The position numbers were made by a program. Shown piece after piece: positions 3,001 through 21,000 of a stretch of DNA of 64,000 nt; the stretch's first letter is position 1; each line of letters opens with the position of its first letter. Source of the stretch: Styela clava (lineage: Eukaryota). Location of the stretch: NCBI RefSeq assembly GCF_964204865.1, contig NC_135256.1, forward strand, positions 2,356,001 through 2,420,000. The letters run 5' to 3'.

Positions 3001-6000
3001 AAACGACGGGTAAATCTGTCTCCTAAAATTTTGTTGGTTTTGCATGCTTGTAAAAGCCGTGGGCAAATCTCCCGGAATTCAAGGGATCATGTAGTGGAGC
3101 GCGAGACCCGTTTCTAAGCAAAACGGTGTAGGTCCTGGAGTCCGGCCGTAACGGATATTTGAAAAGTAAAATAACATTTTACAATTTTGAGAGAATACCA
3201 AAGTCAAAAGGTTATTGTGACGTAACAATGTATCAACACGGCGCCGTATTTCTTGGTTGACGATCCAATTTCGCCCTACCCAAAATTATAGAAAGTATCC
3301 GCTGTTGTCAATTAGACGTTATTGTTCGCATATATCAAATGACTTGATTTAGAATTTTGTGTTGTGGTGATGAATTTTTGAAAATCAAGTCTATTCACTT
3401 AAGTAACACCAGTTCCAACAGCAAACTATTCATATAATCTGACATACCGTAAGTGGCAGGCATCACATACACTGTTCTAATCTGAATATTCGTTGCTTTC
3501 ATTTCCCCAACAGTAGCATCAGTTATATTGGTTTCTAAAAAATAAGTTCAATTTTCAAAGTTTCTGCTTTGAATCTCACAAATAATATGATAGGTATGTG
3601 TTTACATTGTGTATCCATTTCATACACGATGGCCTGCGTATTGTCAAGGGTTAAATTATATATTTGGCAAATGAGAATATATGACCAGATAACTGAACAT
3701 GATAACCTATGACCAGGCAACTGCGAACAACATGTGGGATATGTGCGCTGTGAGTTAGACTCGAAATAGAGAAACTAGTTCCAATGATCTGGATTATATA
3801 TTTGGTTGCACACATTAATTGATAAAGCAAGTTTATCAAGTGAGTCACCTAGAGGTTATTATGTTATATTGAAAATGAAAATGCATACGTAACATCTTGG
3901 TACGTTATAGCTTGTTTATATAAATACGCTAAGCAATTAAAAATTTTTTTTTTGCTGAATCTACATGTATCTTTATATAGGTACCAATGAATATTATTAG
4001 TTTGACCCTTATTTGGAAAAATATTTTTAATTTTTAATCATACCAGTTATGTTGGTTTGTTGCAAAGTCTCTGCCGAGATATGAGCTTCGGTTGCGGAGA
4101 GAGTTGCCTCTACTGTTTGGACAGTTGCCCTTTGCGACGCTATTTCTGTATGTTCAGAGATCACCGAAACATCTTTCGCAGTTTCTATTCTCATATCTTG
4201 AACAGCAGCCCCGGTAATGCTGGTTTCTGGAAATGAAAGTACAGGTTTCTTTAATAAAAGTTACAAAATCAATTTTTGCAATCCAACATTTTTCGATTTT
4301 TTCATGGTTTTGTTATTTTGTGTATGTCTACTGCGTATCCAAGCATGCTGGGGAAATAAACTACTGATCACTAACTAAGGCTCGATAGAAACATTCATGC
4401 TAACCAAACCATGAATCCAAATCCACAGCCCCAATCGTTGCTATAATTTATGGCTAAAACATTTTATATTTAATACCCAAGAAATACGACGAATAAAAAT
4501 AAAAATTTATTTTTCGACTAGGGTGAGTGAAAATTTAAATAAATACTCTAAATGAGGGGGTGTGCACAGTAGATTAGGGTGAATAAAAATTTAACTAAAT
4601 AGTTAAAGAGAGGGGATGTTCACAGTATGTTAGGGTGAGTAAAAACTTGACTAAATACCTAAAGTGAGGGGTTGTTCACAGTAGGTTTGGGTGAGTAAAA
4701 ATTTAACTAAATACTGAAAGTGAGGGGGTGTACACAGTAGGTTGGGATGAGTGAAAATTTAAATAAATACTCAAAATGAAGGGGTGTACACAGTAGGTTT
4801 GGGTGAATAAAAATTTCTCTAAATAGTTAAAGTGAAGGGGTGTACACAGTAGGTTAGGGTGAGAAAAAATTTAACTAAATACTTAAAGTGAGGGGGTGTA
4901 CACAGTAGGTTAGGGTGAGTGAAAATTTAAAAAAAAACTAAAAATGAGGGGGTGTACACAGTATGTTAGGGTGAGTAAAAACTTGACTAAATACTTGAAG
5001 TGAGGGGATGTTCAGAGTAGGTTCGGGTGAGTAAAAATTTACCTAAATACTGAAAGTGAGGGGGTGTACACAGTAGATTAGGGTGAGTGAAAATTTAAAT
5101 GAATACTCAAAATTAGGGGGTGTACACAGAAGGTTAGGGGGAATAAAAATTTATCTAAATAGGTAAAGTGAGGGGGTGTTCACAGTAGGTTAGGGTGAGT
5201 ATAAATTTGGCTAAATACTGAAAGTGAGGGGGGTACACAGTAAGTTAAGGTGAGTAAAAATTTACATAAATATTGAAAGTGAGGGGGTGTTCACAGTAGG
5301 TTAGGGTGAGTATAAATTGCACTCTAAATACTTAAAGTGAGGGGATGTTCACAGTAGGTTAGGGTGAATAAAAATTTAACTAAATACTTAAAGTGAGGGG
5401 GTGTTCACAGTAGGTTAGGAGAGTGCAAACTTAACTAAATACATCAAGTGAGGGGGTGTTCACAGTAGGTTAAGGTGAGTAAAAACTTGACTAAATACTT
5501 AAAGTGAGGGGGTGTTCACAGTAGGTTAGGGTGAGTAAAAACTTGACTAAATACTTAAGTTGAGAGGATGTTCACAGTAGGTTAGGGTGGGTAAAAATTC
5601 AACTCTAAATACTAAACGTGAGAGGGTGTTCACAGTAGGTTAGGGTGAGTAAAACTTGACTGAATACTTAAAGTGAGGGGAAGTTCACAGTAGGTTAGGG
5701 TGAGTAAAAATTTAACTCTAAATACTAAAAGTGAGGGGGTGTTCACAGTAGGTTCGGGTGAGTAAAAATTTACCTGAATACTGAAAGTGAGGGGGTGTAC
5801 ACAGTAGATTAGGGTGAGTGAAAATTTAAATGAATACTCAAAATTAGGGGGTGTACACAGTAGGTTAGGGTGAACAAAAATTTATCTAAATAGGTAAAGT
5901 GAGGGGGTGTTCACAGTAGGTTAGGGTGAGTATAAATTTGGCTAAATACTGAAAGTGAGGGGGTGTTCACAGTAGGTTAAGGTGATTAAAAACTTGAATA

Positions 6001-18000: not shown

Positions 18001-21000
18001 ATTCATCAATTTTCAACTATTCAAACCGTGTAATATCCAAAGTGCAAGTTGCATTAGCTGAATTTGCTTTAAAAATTTATCGAATGGGGGAAAGAGAGTT
18101 TCCACGAATAGTGAAGAAGTAATAGGCAAAAGAAGGAAAATATCAAAACAGTGGCGAATCACTGGGTTAGAAATTTTTTCTGTAAAATATATAGAAAACT
18201 TTTAAAGAATCATACCAGTTATGTTGGTTTGTTGCAAAATCTCTGCAGAGATATGAGCTTCTGTTGCGGACACATTTGCCTCTACTGTTTGGACATTTGT
18301 CTTTTGCGACGCTATTTCTGTATGTTCAGAAATCACCGAAACATCTTTTGCACTTTTTATGCTCATATTTTGAACAGAAGCTCCGGTAATGCTGGTTTCT
18401 GGAAATGAAATGAATGACCTTCTAGTTATATTTGTGATCGTATTTGATAGCATTGAACCTGGGTCAAAAAATAAACGGATGGCCAATACCTAATAGTTCA
18501 CAATTTCGAATACATTCGAATTTATTATTTTCGAATAAGAAATATCAAATAAATTCAGAATAAAATCAAGTAAAAGAATCCTATCATGGTGAAGGAATTT
18601 CCATACAATTGACTATAGAACAACTGTTATTGCTGTGATATTTTAGAATATTAATATTTCTATTTTTTCATAATTCGACACATCCAAGTCATCGGCCATG
18701 GATTTAAATATTCTGTGCCACAGAAAATTTTCCTGGTAAAGAGTTCATGATTTTAACTATCATTATTCAAATTATTCGCCAAAAAAAGTTTCGAATACTT
18801 TGATACTGGAATAATTTCGAGTTTTCGATTCGTTTTGGTCAACTCTAACTTAGGGTGCTTAAATATTTAACCATATATTGAAAGAGGGGGTTTCACTCAG
18901 TAGGTTAAGGTGCGTTACTTAAATATGTATAACTTTAGTAAGTTGAGAGAGTAAAAATTGAAGTAAATACTTAGGTTAGGATAATTAAAAATTTAACTAA
19001 ATACCAAAATTGGTCAGGGTTAGTAAGTTAAGACCTCTAACACAAGAATGCGACTTGTAGGCCAAAATTAAAGTAAGTTTGACAAGAGGTATAAAAATTA
19101 TTTACCATTAATGTTGGTTTGTTGAAGTACATTTGCAGAGATAATTGCCTCCGTTGCCGTAATGTTTGCTTGTTCAGTGGAAACAAAAACCTCCTCGGCT
19201 CGCACATTTGTCTCGTTACTCGCTGCAATATAGCCACATATGTCAATTAGGTATTAATTAGAAGCACTGTCTTGTGAGTTAAAAATGGAAAACTAAGTTA
19301 AAATAAATTAAATGTAGCCTGATATCATTGCCTATTGATATAATATTGCTTATAAATCAGACATTGTTAGATGTAAACTAAGAAGATAGATTAGTTCTAC
19401 TTTGTGATTTCACATGAATGTAAATTTAAATTTGTGGATTTGAAACAGAGGTTTCCAGCGGGTTAAAATGAACAAAATTGAATATCCTTACTTGCGGATC
19501 AAGTGATAAGTTTTTTCTGCATTTCACAGCCCTGACCGCACTTCTAGATGGCGAGAGGAATCGCATTTAACAAAGTCAAAACTAGAATTCGGTTGGAAAC
19601 CGAAGACTTATCGATCGAAGGTTAGGGGATCACCCAAAACAGTGGTCTTACTCCATAGTGACACCGTGTGTCCCATCACTAATTAAATAATACCTTGCTA
19701 TTTATACGACATAATCCATCAAAAATCAATAAGCATCTGATCTGAGCTAAGATGAATGCACATGCAAAATTTGGAGCCGAATAAACCTCGCTTTCGTGAG
19801 ATATCGCGTGTATCTAACACACAGTTATACAGACAAACAGAGACAAATACCTATAATAAATATCAACATACTTACCGATCAAGATCGATAAGTACATACT
19901 TACCGGTAATACTATGTCTGACTAAAATAAAGTCGGATATTAAAAATTTGGTGCCGTTCTCCCGGCTTGCACATCTCATTAGACTAATGATGAATAGAGA
20001 ACAAACTTATTTCTACTTTTAGTCAGGGGGGCGCTTGTTAGTCAAAAAGTCGTATGAGGGGGCGCTACAAAAAAAAAGTTTGGGGAACAATGTGTTGAAA
20101 CAATATTTCAGAAAGAATTATTTTACCGACGTGGCATTGTTCCGCAGAGATGACGGCATCTCTAGCTGTCACAGTCGCCTGTTCTGCTATCACAGATGCT
20201 TCGTCTACATGTGCAATATCCGAACGTTCTGCTGTCACGGAGACTTCTGCAGCGTTATTCACTCTCAAGTATTGCACAACGGAATCAGTTATGTCTGTTG
20301 ATGACACCGACACAGCTGGCCCGATCTCCTGCTCCATTTTCAAACCGATAAAACATCAGATTCGGGTTCGTCAGATATATCATACAAAATAAAATGTAGT
20401 AGTCTCGAATGTAGTAAACTCACCATCAATTGCGGTGAAATGAAACTTCAACACTTGAAGTATTTCAAATGATTTACTTCAGGTTGACTTTTATGTTTAT
20501 GATTGAAACCGAGAATGACAAAGTGGAATTTACAACAGGATCAATGACAAAGAGGTTTTCAACATTGAACAACTGAATCACAAAGAATTAATAACATTAG
20601 TTAGGTCAGGATACATAATGCAAGTGTTGGAGTTTGTAAACTCAAGTTTTATCAAATATCTCATGGGATTCGTGCCATCATAAATTCGTAAAATCTACCT
20701 TTGGTTTCCATCAACAAAACATTTTTTTAAGCGTTTCACTGTTTAGTATTAATATAGAACATCAGCGGTGTAGATTGTAAAGTATAGGGAAAACATTCCA
20801 AAAATAAAACAAAAATTTAAATCTCGTGTAAGCACTTTGGAAATGCATTTTAGGTTGTTTTAGGGCAAATTAGTGGTATTCCGCAACACACAGTTCTAAA
20901 ACATCTGTTTGTACAAACGCATAATATATAAGACTCCATAAAATGGATTAAATGCCCCATAAAGCGACATAGCCAGAAATATACGAAAAACGATCATGCC

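What the first reader, a model, noticed from the sequence alone, without database searches (positions are those of the whole stretch)
4044..18398. Independent accordion expansion of the repeat exons: 14 versus 6 copies through different higher-order units
Seen: paralog A expanded a 3-exon ~2.65-kb unit about 4 times, while paralog B duplicated a 2-exon 1.62-kb unit. Units are nearly identical even in introns, so both expansions are recent and post-date the gene duplication. All copies keep splice sites and frame-preserving length. Inference: N-terminal length (~960 vs ~490 aa) is evolving quickly and is probably polymorphic among individuals, as for immune or allorecognition loci.
Basis: partly seen in the sequence, partly recalled or inferred. 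Interest (0 to 1): 0.72.

Follow-up and report, generated by a model that had tools for sequence, protein, structure and literature searches.

The report
Tandem repeat-exon expansions in sea-squirt NLR genes
Two neighbouring immune-receptor-like (NLR) genes of a sea squirt have each recently and separately multiplied blocks of a 61-amino-acid coding exon, giving 14 and 6 copies; this is a clean but not unprecedented case of a gene lengthening by unequal recombination.

Summary
The window matches Styela clava (sea squirt) proteins. It holds two head-to-head NACHT-LRR (NLR-type) paralogs: A on the minus strand, running off the left edge, and B on the plus strand. Their N-terminal regions are built from one repeat exon of 183 nt. 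A has 14 of 14 copies and B 6 of 6 copies with AG/GT splice sites, phase 1-1, a length divisible by three and no stop codon.

In A, a 2.65-kb block of three exon classes is repeated about 3.8 times at 98.4-99.3% identity, introns included. In B, a 1.62-kb two-exon block is repeated at 98.8%. Orthologous A/B introns are only 76-81% identical, and the first and last copies pair across the paralogs. So an ancestor with about 4-5 repeat exons expanded independently in each gene, most likely by unequal crossing-over.

The repeat is an orphan: I found it only in Styela NLR-cluster proteins, it reaches no Pfam cut-off, and no confident fold was obtained. It is conserved rather than hypervariable (dN/dS about 0.38). 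Population polymorphism and any allorecognition role remain untested. Unit divergence (1.2-1.6%) is close to the published heterozygosity (1.72%), so an assembly artefact is not excluded.

The parts
20128..20337 (-). Paralog A, coding exon 1 (start Met, MEQEIGPA..., 70 aa, itself repeat-like)
   Evidence: tblastn of S. clava model P0029 residues 1-70 at 87%; frame and GT donor read; the repeat profile also hits the exon-1 region of paralog models
19107..19223 (-). Paralog A, exon 2 (39 aa, diverged repeat relative)
   Evidence: 86% identical in DNA to B's exon 2
4044..18398 (-). Paralog A repeat-exon array: 14 exons of 183 nt at 18216-18398, 17303-17485, 16794-16976, 15590-15772, 14655-14837, 14145-14327, 12941-13123, 12006-12188, 11497-11679, 10293-10475, 9360-9542, 8851-9033, 7647-7829, 4044-4226
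   Evidence: 14 of 14 with AG/GT, 183 nt, phase 1-1, no stop; flanks shown
7563..17590 (-). Near-identical core of A's higher-order repeat: period ~2648 bp, three exon classes b-c-a per unit, about 3.8 units
   Evidence: self-BLAST 7563-15787 against 10207-18414; unit identities; location of the diverged edge; class structure. The right limit of ~17590 is approximate.
4519..7411 (.). 56-bp minisatellite, 51.4 copies, in the intron between A's 13th and 14th repeat exons; 3.8-copy versions sit in each higher-order unit (8413-8624, 11059-11270, 13707-13918, 16356-16567)
   Evidence: no copy found in paralog B
3449..3547 (-). Paralog A linker exon (ETNITDATVGEM..., begins like a repeat)
2740..2811 (-). 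Paralog A second linker exon (ends in a Lys run); limits approximate
1..426 (-). Start of paralog A's NACHT exon (P-loop GQAGSGKTT present); the gene runs off the window
   Evidence: tblastn at 88.7% to P0029 residues 346-487; translation; 90.7% DNA identity to 51122-50659
41050..41259 (+). Paralog B coding exon 1 (start Met)
   Evidence: RefSeq model P0027 residues 1-71 at 98.6%
41764..41880 (+). Paralog B exon 2
42276..47454 (+). Paralog B repeat-exon array: 6 exons at 42276-42458, 44032-44214, 44940-45143 (204 nt), 45652-45834, 46560-46763 (204 nt), 47272-47454
   Evidence: 6 of 6 with AG/GT, length divisible by 3, no stop
44020..47471 (+). B's higher-order repeat: 1620-bp two-exon unit in the order p-q-p-q-p (about 2.1 units)
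   Evidence: 22 mismatches in 1832 bp, no gaps; 6 mismatches in the 1437-bp interior, the rest in or beside the flanking p exons
47928..48491 (+). Paralog B linker exons (47928-48014, 48414-48491)
50688..52094 (+). Paralog B NACHT exon (open frame 50688-52166)
   Evidence: Pfam NACHT 71 bits against a cut-off of 26.7; S. clava NLR-like hits; P0035 at 99.8%; NLRP1 7crw at 3.5e-9
52740..58822 (+). Paralog B downstream exons: 52740-53108, 53680-53880, 54481-54654, three similar LRR-type exons 55560-55733, 56649-56834, 57575-57760, and the last exon 58640-58822
   Evidence: tblastn of P0029; P0035
22685..24888 (.). 43-bp minisatellite (50.7 copies) at the centre of the inverted duplication, between the two divergent genes
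   Evidence: flanking inverted match 21925-22462 against 26547-26007

Best explanation
The window holds two divergently transcribed paralogs of a Styela-specific NACHT-LRR (NLR-type) gene family. Their N-terminal region, where NLRs normally carry the effector domain, is built from a 61-residue orphan repeat encoded one unit per exon. Every repeat intron is in phase 1 and every exon length is a multiple of three, so any number of exons stays in frame. The gene that was duplicated already carried about 4-5 repeat exons of distinct classes. Afterwards each copy grew on its own by unequal homologous exchange between misaligned repeat exons and their ~0.5-kb homologous flanks. A amplified a three-exon 2.65-kb block to about 3.8 copies (5 to 14 exons). 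B amplified a two-exon 1.62-kb block once (4 to 6 exons). Shown: the anatomy, the identities, the cross-paralog pairing of the end copies, purifying selection on the exons, and the NLR context. Inferred: unequal crossing-over as the mechanism, and that copy number still varies in the population. My best guess for function, at low confidence, is that the acidic (net -7 per unit), Ser/Thr/Ala-rich array acts as a uniform multivalent scaffold or spacer on the signalling side of the receptor. On that view copy number sets its length or valency, and the array does not determine specificity.
For: Exon census and splice/phase integrity, 20 of 20. Unit identities 98.4-98.8% and 99.3% for the core in A; 98.8% in B, 99.6% in its interior. 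Between classes, introns are 35-89% and exons 87-96% identical. Orthologous A/B introns are 75.9-81.4% identical, which puts the expansions about 14-70 times younger than the gene duplication (my Jukes-Cantor arithmetic on these numbers). In the tree, A01+B01 and A14+B06 each get 100/100, A's class b joins B03/B05 at 95/96, and the A label needs 4 changes, so the classes predate the paralogs. Array edges are more diverged than the interior in both genes, as unequal exchange between older copies predicts. Differences between units are substitutions with transitions:transversions 83:60 and 1-3 gap columns, unlike long-read consensus errors. Coding status: pooled dN/dS 0.38 over 55 pairs; exons better conserved than introns; database S. 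clava models splice the repeat to NACHT-LRR (P0029, 1248 aa; P0033; P0035 matches B's exons at 98-100%). NLR identity. The profile counts 1-8 canonical repeats in models from other loci, most of them partial models.
Against: No reads, second assembly or second individual were available, so the array lengths rest on one assembly. The S. clava genome paper reports PacBio RSII reads assembled with FALCON and 1.72% heterozygosity. Unit divergence of 1.2-1.6% is in that range, so some units could be allelic sequence laid in tandem. No database protein carries A's own exons: 0 of 40 stored proteins gave a >=98% match on A's strand, so A's 14-exon reading has no model support. RefSeq splits B into two models. 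A runs off the window, so its integrity downstream is unknown. I saw no transcript data. The function is a guess: no Pfam family reaches its cut-off, AlphaFold2 gave mean pLDDT 33, and no relatives were found outside Styela-like proteins.
Confidence: 0.74

Rival explanations
1. Assembly artefact: part of the 2.65-kb array, and perhaps B's duplication, is an over-expansion in which the two haplotypes or misaligned long reads were laid down in tandem. The true copy numbers would be lower.
For: Unit divergence of 1.2-1.6% is close to the 1.72% heterozygosity reported for this species, whose published assembly used PacBio RSII reads and FALCON (passages read). No database protein model covers A's array.
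Against: Two haplotypes cannot yield about 3.8 ordered units whose pairwise differences are largely unit-specific: 22, 18 and 8 private columns for U1-U3. Differences are substitutions with a transition excess, and indels are almost absent. Both arrays have older, diverged edge copies and a cleaner interior, a pattern of real unequal exchange. The 10.9-kb array is shorter than the DNA fragments (15 kb or more) that the paper reports.
Confidence: 0.13
2. Old arrays kept alike by gene conversion: both genes inherited long arrays, and ongoing conversion within each gene makes old units look young. The 14-versus-6 difference would then be mostly loss, not recent gain.
For: Exons of different classes and of the two paralogs are more alike (87-96%) than their introns. 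Synonymous distances between A and B exons (about 0.10-0.25) are at or below the intron divergence, as some conversion or constraint would give.
Against: Identity of 98-99.6% runs uninterrupted through whole 1.6-2.65-kb units, including class-specific intron sequence and the embedded 3.8-copy minisatellite. Meanwhile the three classes inside a unit stay 53-86% identical in their introns and keep a strict b-c-a order. Short-tract conversion would blur the classes; whole-unit duplication explains the pattern directly. In practice the two processes overlap, since both are unequal or ectopic exchange.
Confidence: 0.1
3. The repeats are not coding exons but a non-coding satellite-like element with accidental open frames, wrongly joined to NLR genes by automatic annotation.
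For: All three tested frames, two of them on the opposite strand, are open across each unit. No Pfam family and no confident fold were found.
Against: 20 of 20 copies keep AG/GT, phase and length. dN/dS is 0.38. Exons are clearly better conserved than their flanks. The start-codon exon and exon 2 are diverged relatives of the same motif. Several independent paralog models splice it to NACHT.
Confidence: 0.03

Closest known systems
Zebrafish NLR-B30.2 (NLR-C) family N-terminal peptide repeats (Howe et al. 2016, PMC4852459; passages read)
   Same: An NLR with a large NACHT exon, LRRs on single exons, and an N-terminal extension of lineage-specific peptide repeats. Each repeat sits on its own exon, some subgroups are 'extensively duplicated', the repeats are shuffled between genes, and their function is unknown.
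   Different: The fish repeat is about 30 aa, against 61 aa here with no detectable sequence relation. No significant FISNA match and no B30.2 domain were found here. The passages I read do not describe near-identical multi-exon higher-order units.
NBPF/Olduvai 3mer higher-order repeats in human NBPF genes (PMC9584774, PMC10475015; search listing and abstract starts only)
   Same: Coding repeat monomers of distinct classes are amplified in tandem as a three-monomer higher-order unit inside a gene, with copy number rising recently and lineage-specifically.
   Different: Unrelated protein, unrelated gene family (not an NLR), and a different monomer size (~1.6 kb there against ~0.5-1.2 kb spacing here).
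Fungal NLRs with highly conserved internal repeats (het-d/het-e WD40; PMC12222747, abstract and impact statement read; PMC4986451, listing only)
   Same: NLR genes whose tandem repeats are unusually alike, kept so by concerted evolution or unequal exchange. They are hard to assemble and are tied to non-self recognition.
   Different: There the repeats are the C-terminal sensor (WD40 propeller), lie within one exon, and have hypervariable sites under diversifying selection. Here they are N-terminal, one per exon, of unknown fold, and show no hypervariable site.
LPA kringle IV type 2 copy-number polymorphism (recalled; no call)
   Same: A multi-exon unit of a few kb repeated in tandem inside a gene, in frame, with copy number varying between individuals and setting protein length.
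   Different: Known domain (kringle), vertebrate plasma protein; polymorphism is proven there and untested here.

Membership tests
Animal NLR (NACHT-LRR STAND NTPases) | NACHT NTPase domain with Walker A P-loop | tested here: met
   Pfam NACHT E 1.4e-19, 71 bits against a cut-off of 26.7, for B's exon. GQAGSGKTT is present in B and in A's partial exon. Solved NLRP1 (7crw) 3.5e-9 and NOD2 (5irm) 9.1e-5.
Animal NLR (NACHT-LRR STAND NTPases) | Winged-helix / helical modules after NACHT | tested here: inconclusive
   NOD2_WH 22.1 bits against cut-off 23.1; NLRC4_HD2 18.4 against 33.1. Both are below their curated cut-offs.
Animal NLR (NACHT-LRR STAND NTPases) | C-terminal leucine-rich repeats | tested here: inconclusive
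   Three mutually similar 58-62-aa exons follow. Pfam found no family for exon 57554-57784. In paralog models LRR_6 scores 21.0 against 23.4 and LRR_1 15.3 against 20.6.
Animal NLR (NACHT-LRR STAND NTPases) | Recognised N-terminal effector domain (CARD, PYD, death, TIR, BIR) | tested here: not met
   None was reported by Pfam for repeat exons, exon 1, or the paralog models P0026-P0029 and P0033. The position is taken by the orphan repeat.
Fish NLR-B30.2 family | FISNA extension upstream of NACHT and a C-terminal B30.2/SPRY domain | tested here: not met
   FISNA is not among the 25 best of 40 Pfam families listed for the NACHT exon, so any match has E above 0.039. The last exon has no SPRY match.
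Fish NLR-B30.2 family | N-terminal peptide repeats, one per exon, variable in number | tested here: met
   (analogy of organisation only; the sequences are unrelated).
Pentapeptide repeat proteins (Pfam Pentapeptide_4) | Score at or above Pfam's gathering cut-off | tested here: not met
   30.4, 29.5 and 25.6 bits against a cut-off of 38 on multi-repeat models, with no single stretch significant. A single exon gives no hit. By eye the 5-residue pattern is broken by 2-3-residue inserts.
Higher-order tandem repeat (HOR) organisation | Monomers within a unit clearly diverged while corresponding monomers of successive units are nearly identical | tested here: met
   In A, classes a, b and c are 53-86% identical in introns and 87-94% in exons between classes, against 97-100% within a class, with units 98.4-99.3% identical. 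In B, 98.8%.
Fungal high-internal-conservation NLR repeats | Hypervariable positions under diversifying selection within otherwise near-identical repeats | tested here: not met
   Among 35 distinct repeat peptides (39 taken) the most variable columns are dimorphic (T/N, L/V, A/T; at most 1.35 bits). Pooled dN/dS is 0.38.

The most novel reading that the evidence does not exclude
The 61-residue repeat is an undescribed, tunicate-specific NLR signalling module. It would be a self-associating or partner-docking array whose exon copy number (1 to 14 in this family) is polymorphic and tunes the valency of the activated receptor. It would pair with the non-NLR proteins of the same chromosome that carry the same N-terminal module on an acidic tail (P0034, P0039), as an adaptor shares a homotypic domain with its receptor.
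Probability: 0.12. Interest if true: 0.7.

Novelty: new member of a known kind. Interest (0 to 1): 0.45.

Why it matters
The window gives a dated, base-level example of how an immune-type receptor gene lengthens. Symmetric phase-1 exons plus homologous flanks let unequal exchange add whole multi-exon blocks without breaking the frame, and two adjacent paralogs did this independently with different blocks. It also shows that a chromosome cluster of Styela NLR genes carries an orphan repeat in the effector position, parallel to the unexplained N-terminal repeats of fish NLRs. It shows as well that automatic annotation splits or misses these genes. If copy number varies between animals, the locus would be a tractable marker and a test case for length variation in invertebrate-chordate innate immunity.

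Tried and rejected
Structure. AlphaFold2 on the 8-repeat database model P0026, without an alignment, gave mean pLDDT 33 and pTM 0.29. I did not take it to a fold search because matches would be meaningless.

Self-association. Complex prediction with four copies of one repeat returned 'no answer' (score 0.01, mark 0.32). This is evidence neither way.

Look-alikes. ESM Atlas gave no usable hit. A PDB profile search gave only non-significant matches, the best a phage tail needle gp26 at E 0.068. A profile search of 1.84 billion representatives gave 8 proteins: 7 are Styela or Styela-like NLR-cluster proteins and 1 is a bacterial repeat protein that I take for chance (E 4.9e-4).

Pentapeptide reading: rejected on the Pfam cut-off.

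Simple sub-period inside the repeat. Autocorrelation showed only weak 5-, 7-, 10- and 15-residue signals. The one solid sub-repeat event is the 21-nt duplication in two B exons.

Other scans. Rfam and tRNA scans of the window found nothing. Pfam on 5 further open frames of the window (3 at 61599-63056, 1 at 25299-25577, 1 at 34856-35125) found nothing.

Literature. Searches for tunicate or Styela NLR descriptions turned up no account of this repeat. The main text of the S. clava genome paper has 0 occurrences of NLR, NOD-like or NACHT.

Not done.

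
Full report
WHAT IS THERE

The window is AT-rich (GC 32-39%) and contains no N. A self-comparison shows a 2.65-kb periodicity from 7563 to 18414, ~0.5-kb sub-repeats, and an inverted copy of the whole left part of the window at about 41000-51100.

The largest open frame, 50688-52166 on the plus strand, is a NACHT domain (Pfam 71 bits against a cut-off of 26.7). Its best database relatives are Styela clava proteins named NLRC3-, NLRC5- or NLRP-like, at 88-98% identity. The nearest solved relatives by sequence are NLRP1 and NOD2. 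The window is therefore tunicate DNA matching S. clava, not human.

tblastn with a full-length S. clava paralog model (P0029, 1248 aa) lays out two genes.
- Paralog B, plus strand: exon 1 with the start Met (41050-41259), exon 2 (41764-41880), six repeat exons, two linker exons, the NACHT exon, three further exons, three similar LRR-type exons and a last exon ending at 58822.
- Paralog A, minus strand: the mirror image. Exon 1 is at 20337-20128 and exon 2 at 19223-19107. Fourteen repeat exons follow, then linkers at 3547-3449 and 2811-2740. The NACHT exon starts at 426 and runs off the left edge.

The two genes are head to head, with start codons 20.7 kb apart. The frames and splice junctions I read are intact in both.

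CHECKING THE OBSERVATION

A pattern scan finds 14 repeat exons in A, from 18398 down to 4044 (the finding's own limits), and 6 in B. All 20 of 20 have an AG acceptor and GT donor and no stop codon. They begin with two bases and end with one base of a split codon (phase 1-1). 18 of 20 are 183 nt. 2 of 20 (B's third and fifth) are 204 nt because of an in-frame 21-nt duplication.

A's exons fall into three classes in the strict order b-c-a. The successive units 7647-10292, 10293-12940 and 12941-15589 are 98.4-98.8% identical, with 31-42 mismatches and 1-2 gap events. The fourth unit differs from the third by 13 substitutions over its first 2 kb, and becomes diverged only in its last ~650 bp.

B shows 44020-45851 against 45640-47471 with 22 mismatches in 1832 bp and no gap. 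Only 6 of these lie in the 1437-bp interior.

INDEPENDENT AND RECENT?

Within a class, copies are 97-100% identical in exon and intron alike. Between classes, introns are 35-89% and exons 87-96% identical. Orthologous non-repeat introns of A and B are 75.9-81.4% identical.

A maximum-likelihood tree of each exon with 90 nt of upstream and 230 nt of downstream intron gives these results:
- A's first copy pairs with B's first (100/100).
- A's last copy pairs with B's last (100/100).
- A's class b joins B's 204-nt class (95/96).
- The A label needs 4 changes on the tree.

So several classes existed before the genes were duplicated. Three copies (A01, A13, B06) are mosaics: their exon side follows one class and their outer flank another lineage. 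Their tree positions therefore reflect the flanks.

The simplest history is an ancestor with about 4-5 repeat exons. Whole-block duplications then followed, of a three-exon block in A and a two-exon block in B. Each was seeded by exchange between two older copies of the same class, which now form the more diverged array edges.

By my Jukes-Cantor arithmetic on these numbers the expansions are about 14-70 times younger than the gene duplication.

REAL OR ARTEFACT?

Differences between units are almost all substitutions, with transitions:transversions of 83:60 pooled over five comparisons and 1-3 gap columns. Most differences are private to one unit. This does not look like long-read consensus error or a simple two-haplotype merge.

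However, the published S. clava genome was assembled from PacBio RSII reads with FALCON and has 1.72% heterozygosity (passages read). That figure is the same order as the unit divergence. I had no reads or second assembly, so this stays open.

None of the 40 stored proteins matches A's own exons at 98% or better. B is split by RefSeq into two models. The N-terminal model P0027 ends by reading into the intron after the fifth repeat exon. P0035 starts inside the sixth.

WHAT THE REPEAT IS

It is coding. Pooled dN/dS is 0.38 over 55 pairs of class representatives. Exons are better conserved than their flanks. Paralog models splice it to NACHT-LRR. Exon 1, exon 2 and the first linker exon are diverged relatives of the same motif.

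It is an orphan.
- No Pfam family reaches its cut-off. Pentapeptide_4 scores 30 bits against 38, and only on multi-repeat proteins.
- A word-indexed search found 12 proteins, all S. clava.
- A full HMMER profile search of 1.84 billion representatives found 8 proteins, 7 of them from the same family.
- ESM Atlas gave no usable hit and the PDB search no significant one.

The unit is acidic (net -7) and rich in Ala, Thr, Ser, Glu, Ile and Val. It has no Pro, Cys or aromatic residue in the consensus. AlphaFold2 gave only a low-confidence, strand-rich model (pLDDT 33).

Among 35 distinct repeat peptides no position is hypervariable. This argues against a specificity-determining or allorecognition-type role for the repeat sequence itself. 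My best guess is a uniform scaffold whose length is the variable, and I hold it with low confidence.

The profile counts 1-8 canonical repeats in models from other loci, most of them partial. The module also occurs on non-NLR proteins with an acidic tail (P0034, P0039).

COMPARISON WITH WHAT IS KNOWN

- Zebrafish NLR-B30.2 family: the nearest analogue in organisation. It has ~30-aa N-terminal peptide repeats, one per exon, 'extensively duplicated' in some subgroups and of unknown function (PMC4852459, passages). The present genes lack FISNA and B30.2 and are not members.
- NBPF Olduvai 3mer higher-order repeats: they match the block-wise growth (listing and abstract starts only).
- Fungal het-d/het-e NLRs: they share near-identical repeats and assembly difficulty, but theirs are C-terminal sensors with hypervariable sites (abstract).
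- LPA kringle IV-2: cited from recall only.

I found no description of this tunicate repeat. The S. clava genome paper's main text does not mention NLR, NOD-like or NACHT.

METHOD NOTE AND VERDICT

I searched the gene models exon by exon: the NACHT exon, one repeat exon, and an alignment of the 20 exon translations. The multi-exon proteins I used are database models returned by the searches.

Verdict: a real and well-described feature. It is an ordinary mechanism in a little-studied gene family, with an orphan repeat worth a bench look.

Noticed in passing
window 4519-7411; also 8413-8624, 11059-11270, 13707-13918, 16356-16567, 18937-19004: A 56-bp minisatellite, G-rich on the plus strand (GC skew +0.41), has 51 copies in the intron before A's last repeat exon. 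Each 2.65-kb unit holds 3.8 copies and about one more lies upstream of the array. None was found in paralog B. It is a second accordion, specific to the paralog that expanded more, and could favour unequal exchange (speculation).
   Followed up: partly
window 22685-24888 (flanks 21925-22462 and 26007-26547): A 43-bp minisatellite of about 51 copies sits at the centre of the inverted duplication that created the two head-to-head genes, bracketed by an 80%-identical inverted match.
   Followed up: no
window 41050-46795 and 47304-58828: RefSeq appears to split paralog B into two gene models. P0027 (LOC120328798) ends by reading through the donor of the fifth repeat exon. P0035 (LOC120328799) starts inside the sixth. 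No stored model matches paralog A's array.
   Followed up: yes
window 44940-45143 and 46560-46763: Two B exons carry an in-frame 21-nt duplication (seven residues, AEAHISA). It is the only clear sub-repeat slippage inside the exon. It predates B's block duplication because both copies have it.
   Followed up: yes
database proteins P0034 and P0039 (not in the window): The same N-terminal module (exon 1, exon 2, one repeat) is joined to a long acidic, internally repetitive tail with no NACHT and no Pfam family. This suggests exon shuffling of the module or a partner protein.
   Followed up: partly
window 21074-21460; 35375-35794, 36327-36718, 38767-39158: A ~400-bp dispersed repeat has one copy upstream of A and three inverted copies in the much longer upstream region of B. 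It is probably a mobile element and contributes to the asymmetry of the intergenic region.
   Followed up: no
window 4027-18489, both strands: Each repeat exon is open in three frames, two of them on the opposite strand (64-92 aa). Those antisense frames match no Pfam family and are best read as a by-product of the stop-poor composition.
   Followed up: partly
window 2740-2811: A's second linker exon ends in an A-rich run encoding a Lys stretch just before the NACHT exon. Paralog model P0029 has KKKKKKKEK at that point, while B reads TAKG there. The basic tract is therefore of variable length.
   Followed up: no
window 61599-63730 (minus strand), 62001-64000: Several 95-117-aa open frames with a recurring Cys/Phe-rich pattern lie downstream of gene B, together with a local GC skew of +0.23. 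The three frames tested (61599-63056) matched no Pfam family, and their nature is unknown.
   Followed up: partly
window 53995-54295: A 162-bp unit is present in 1.9 tandem copies inside an intron of B.
   Followed up: no
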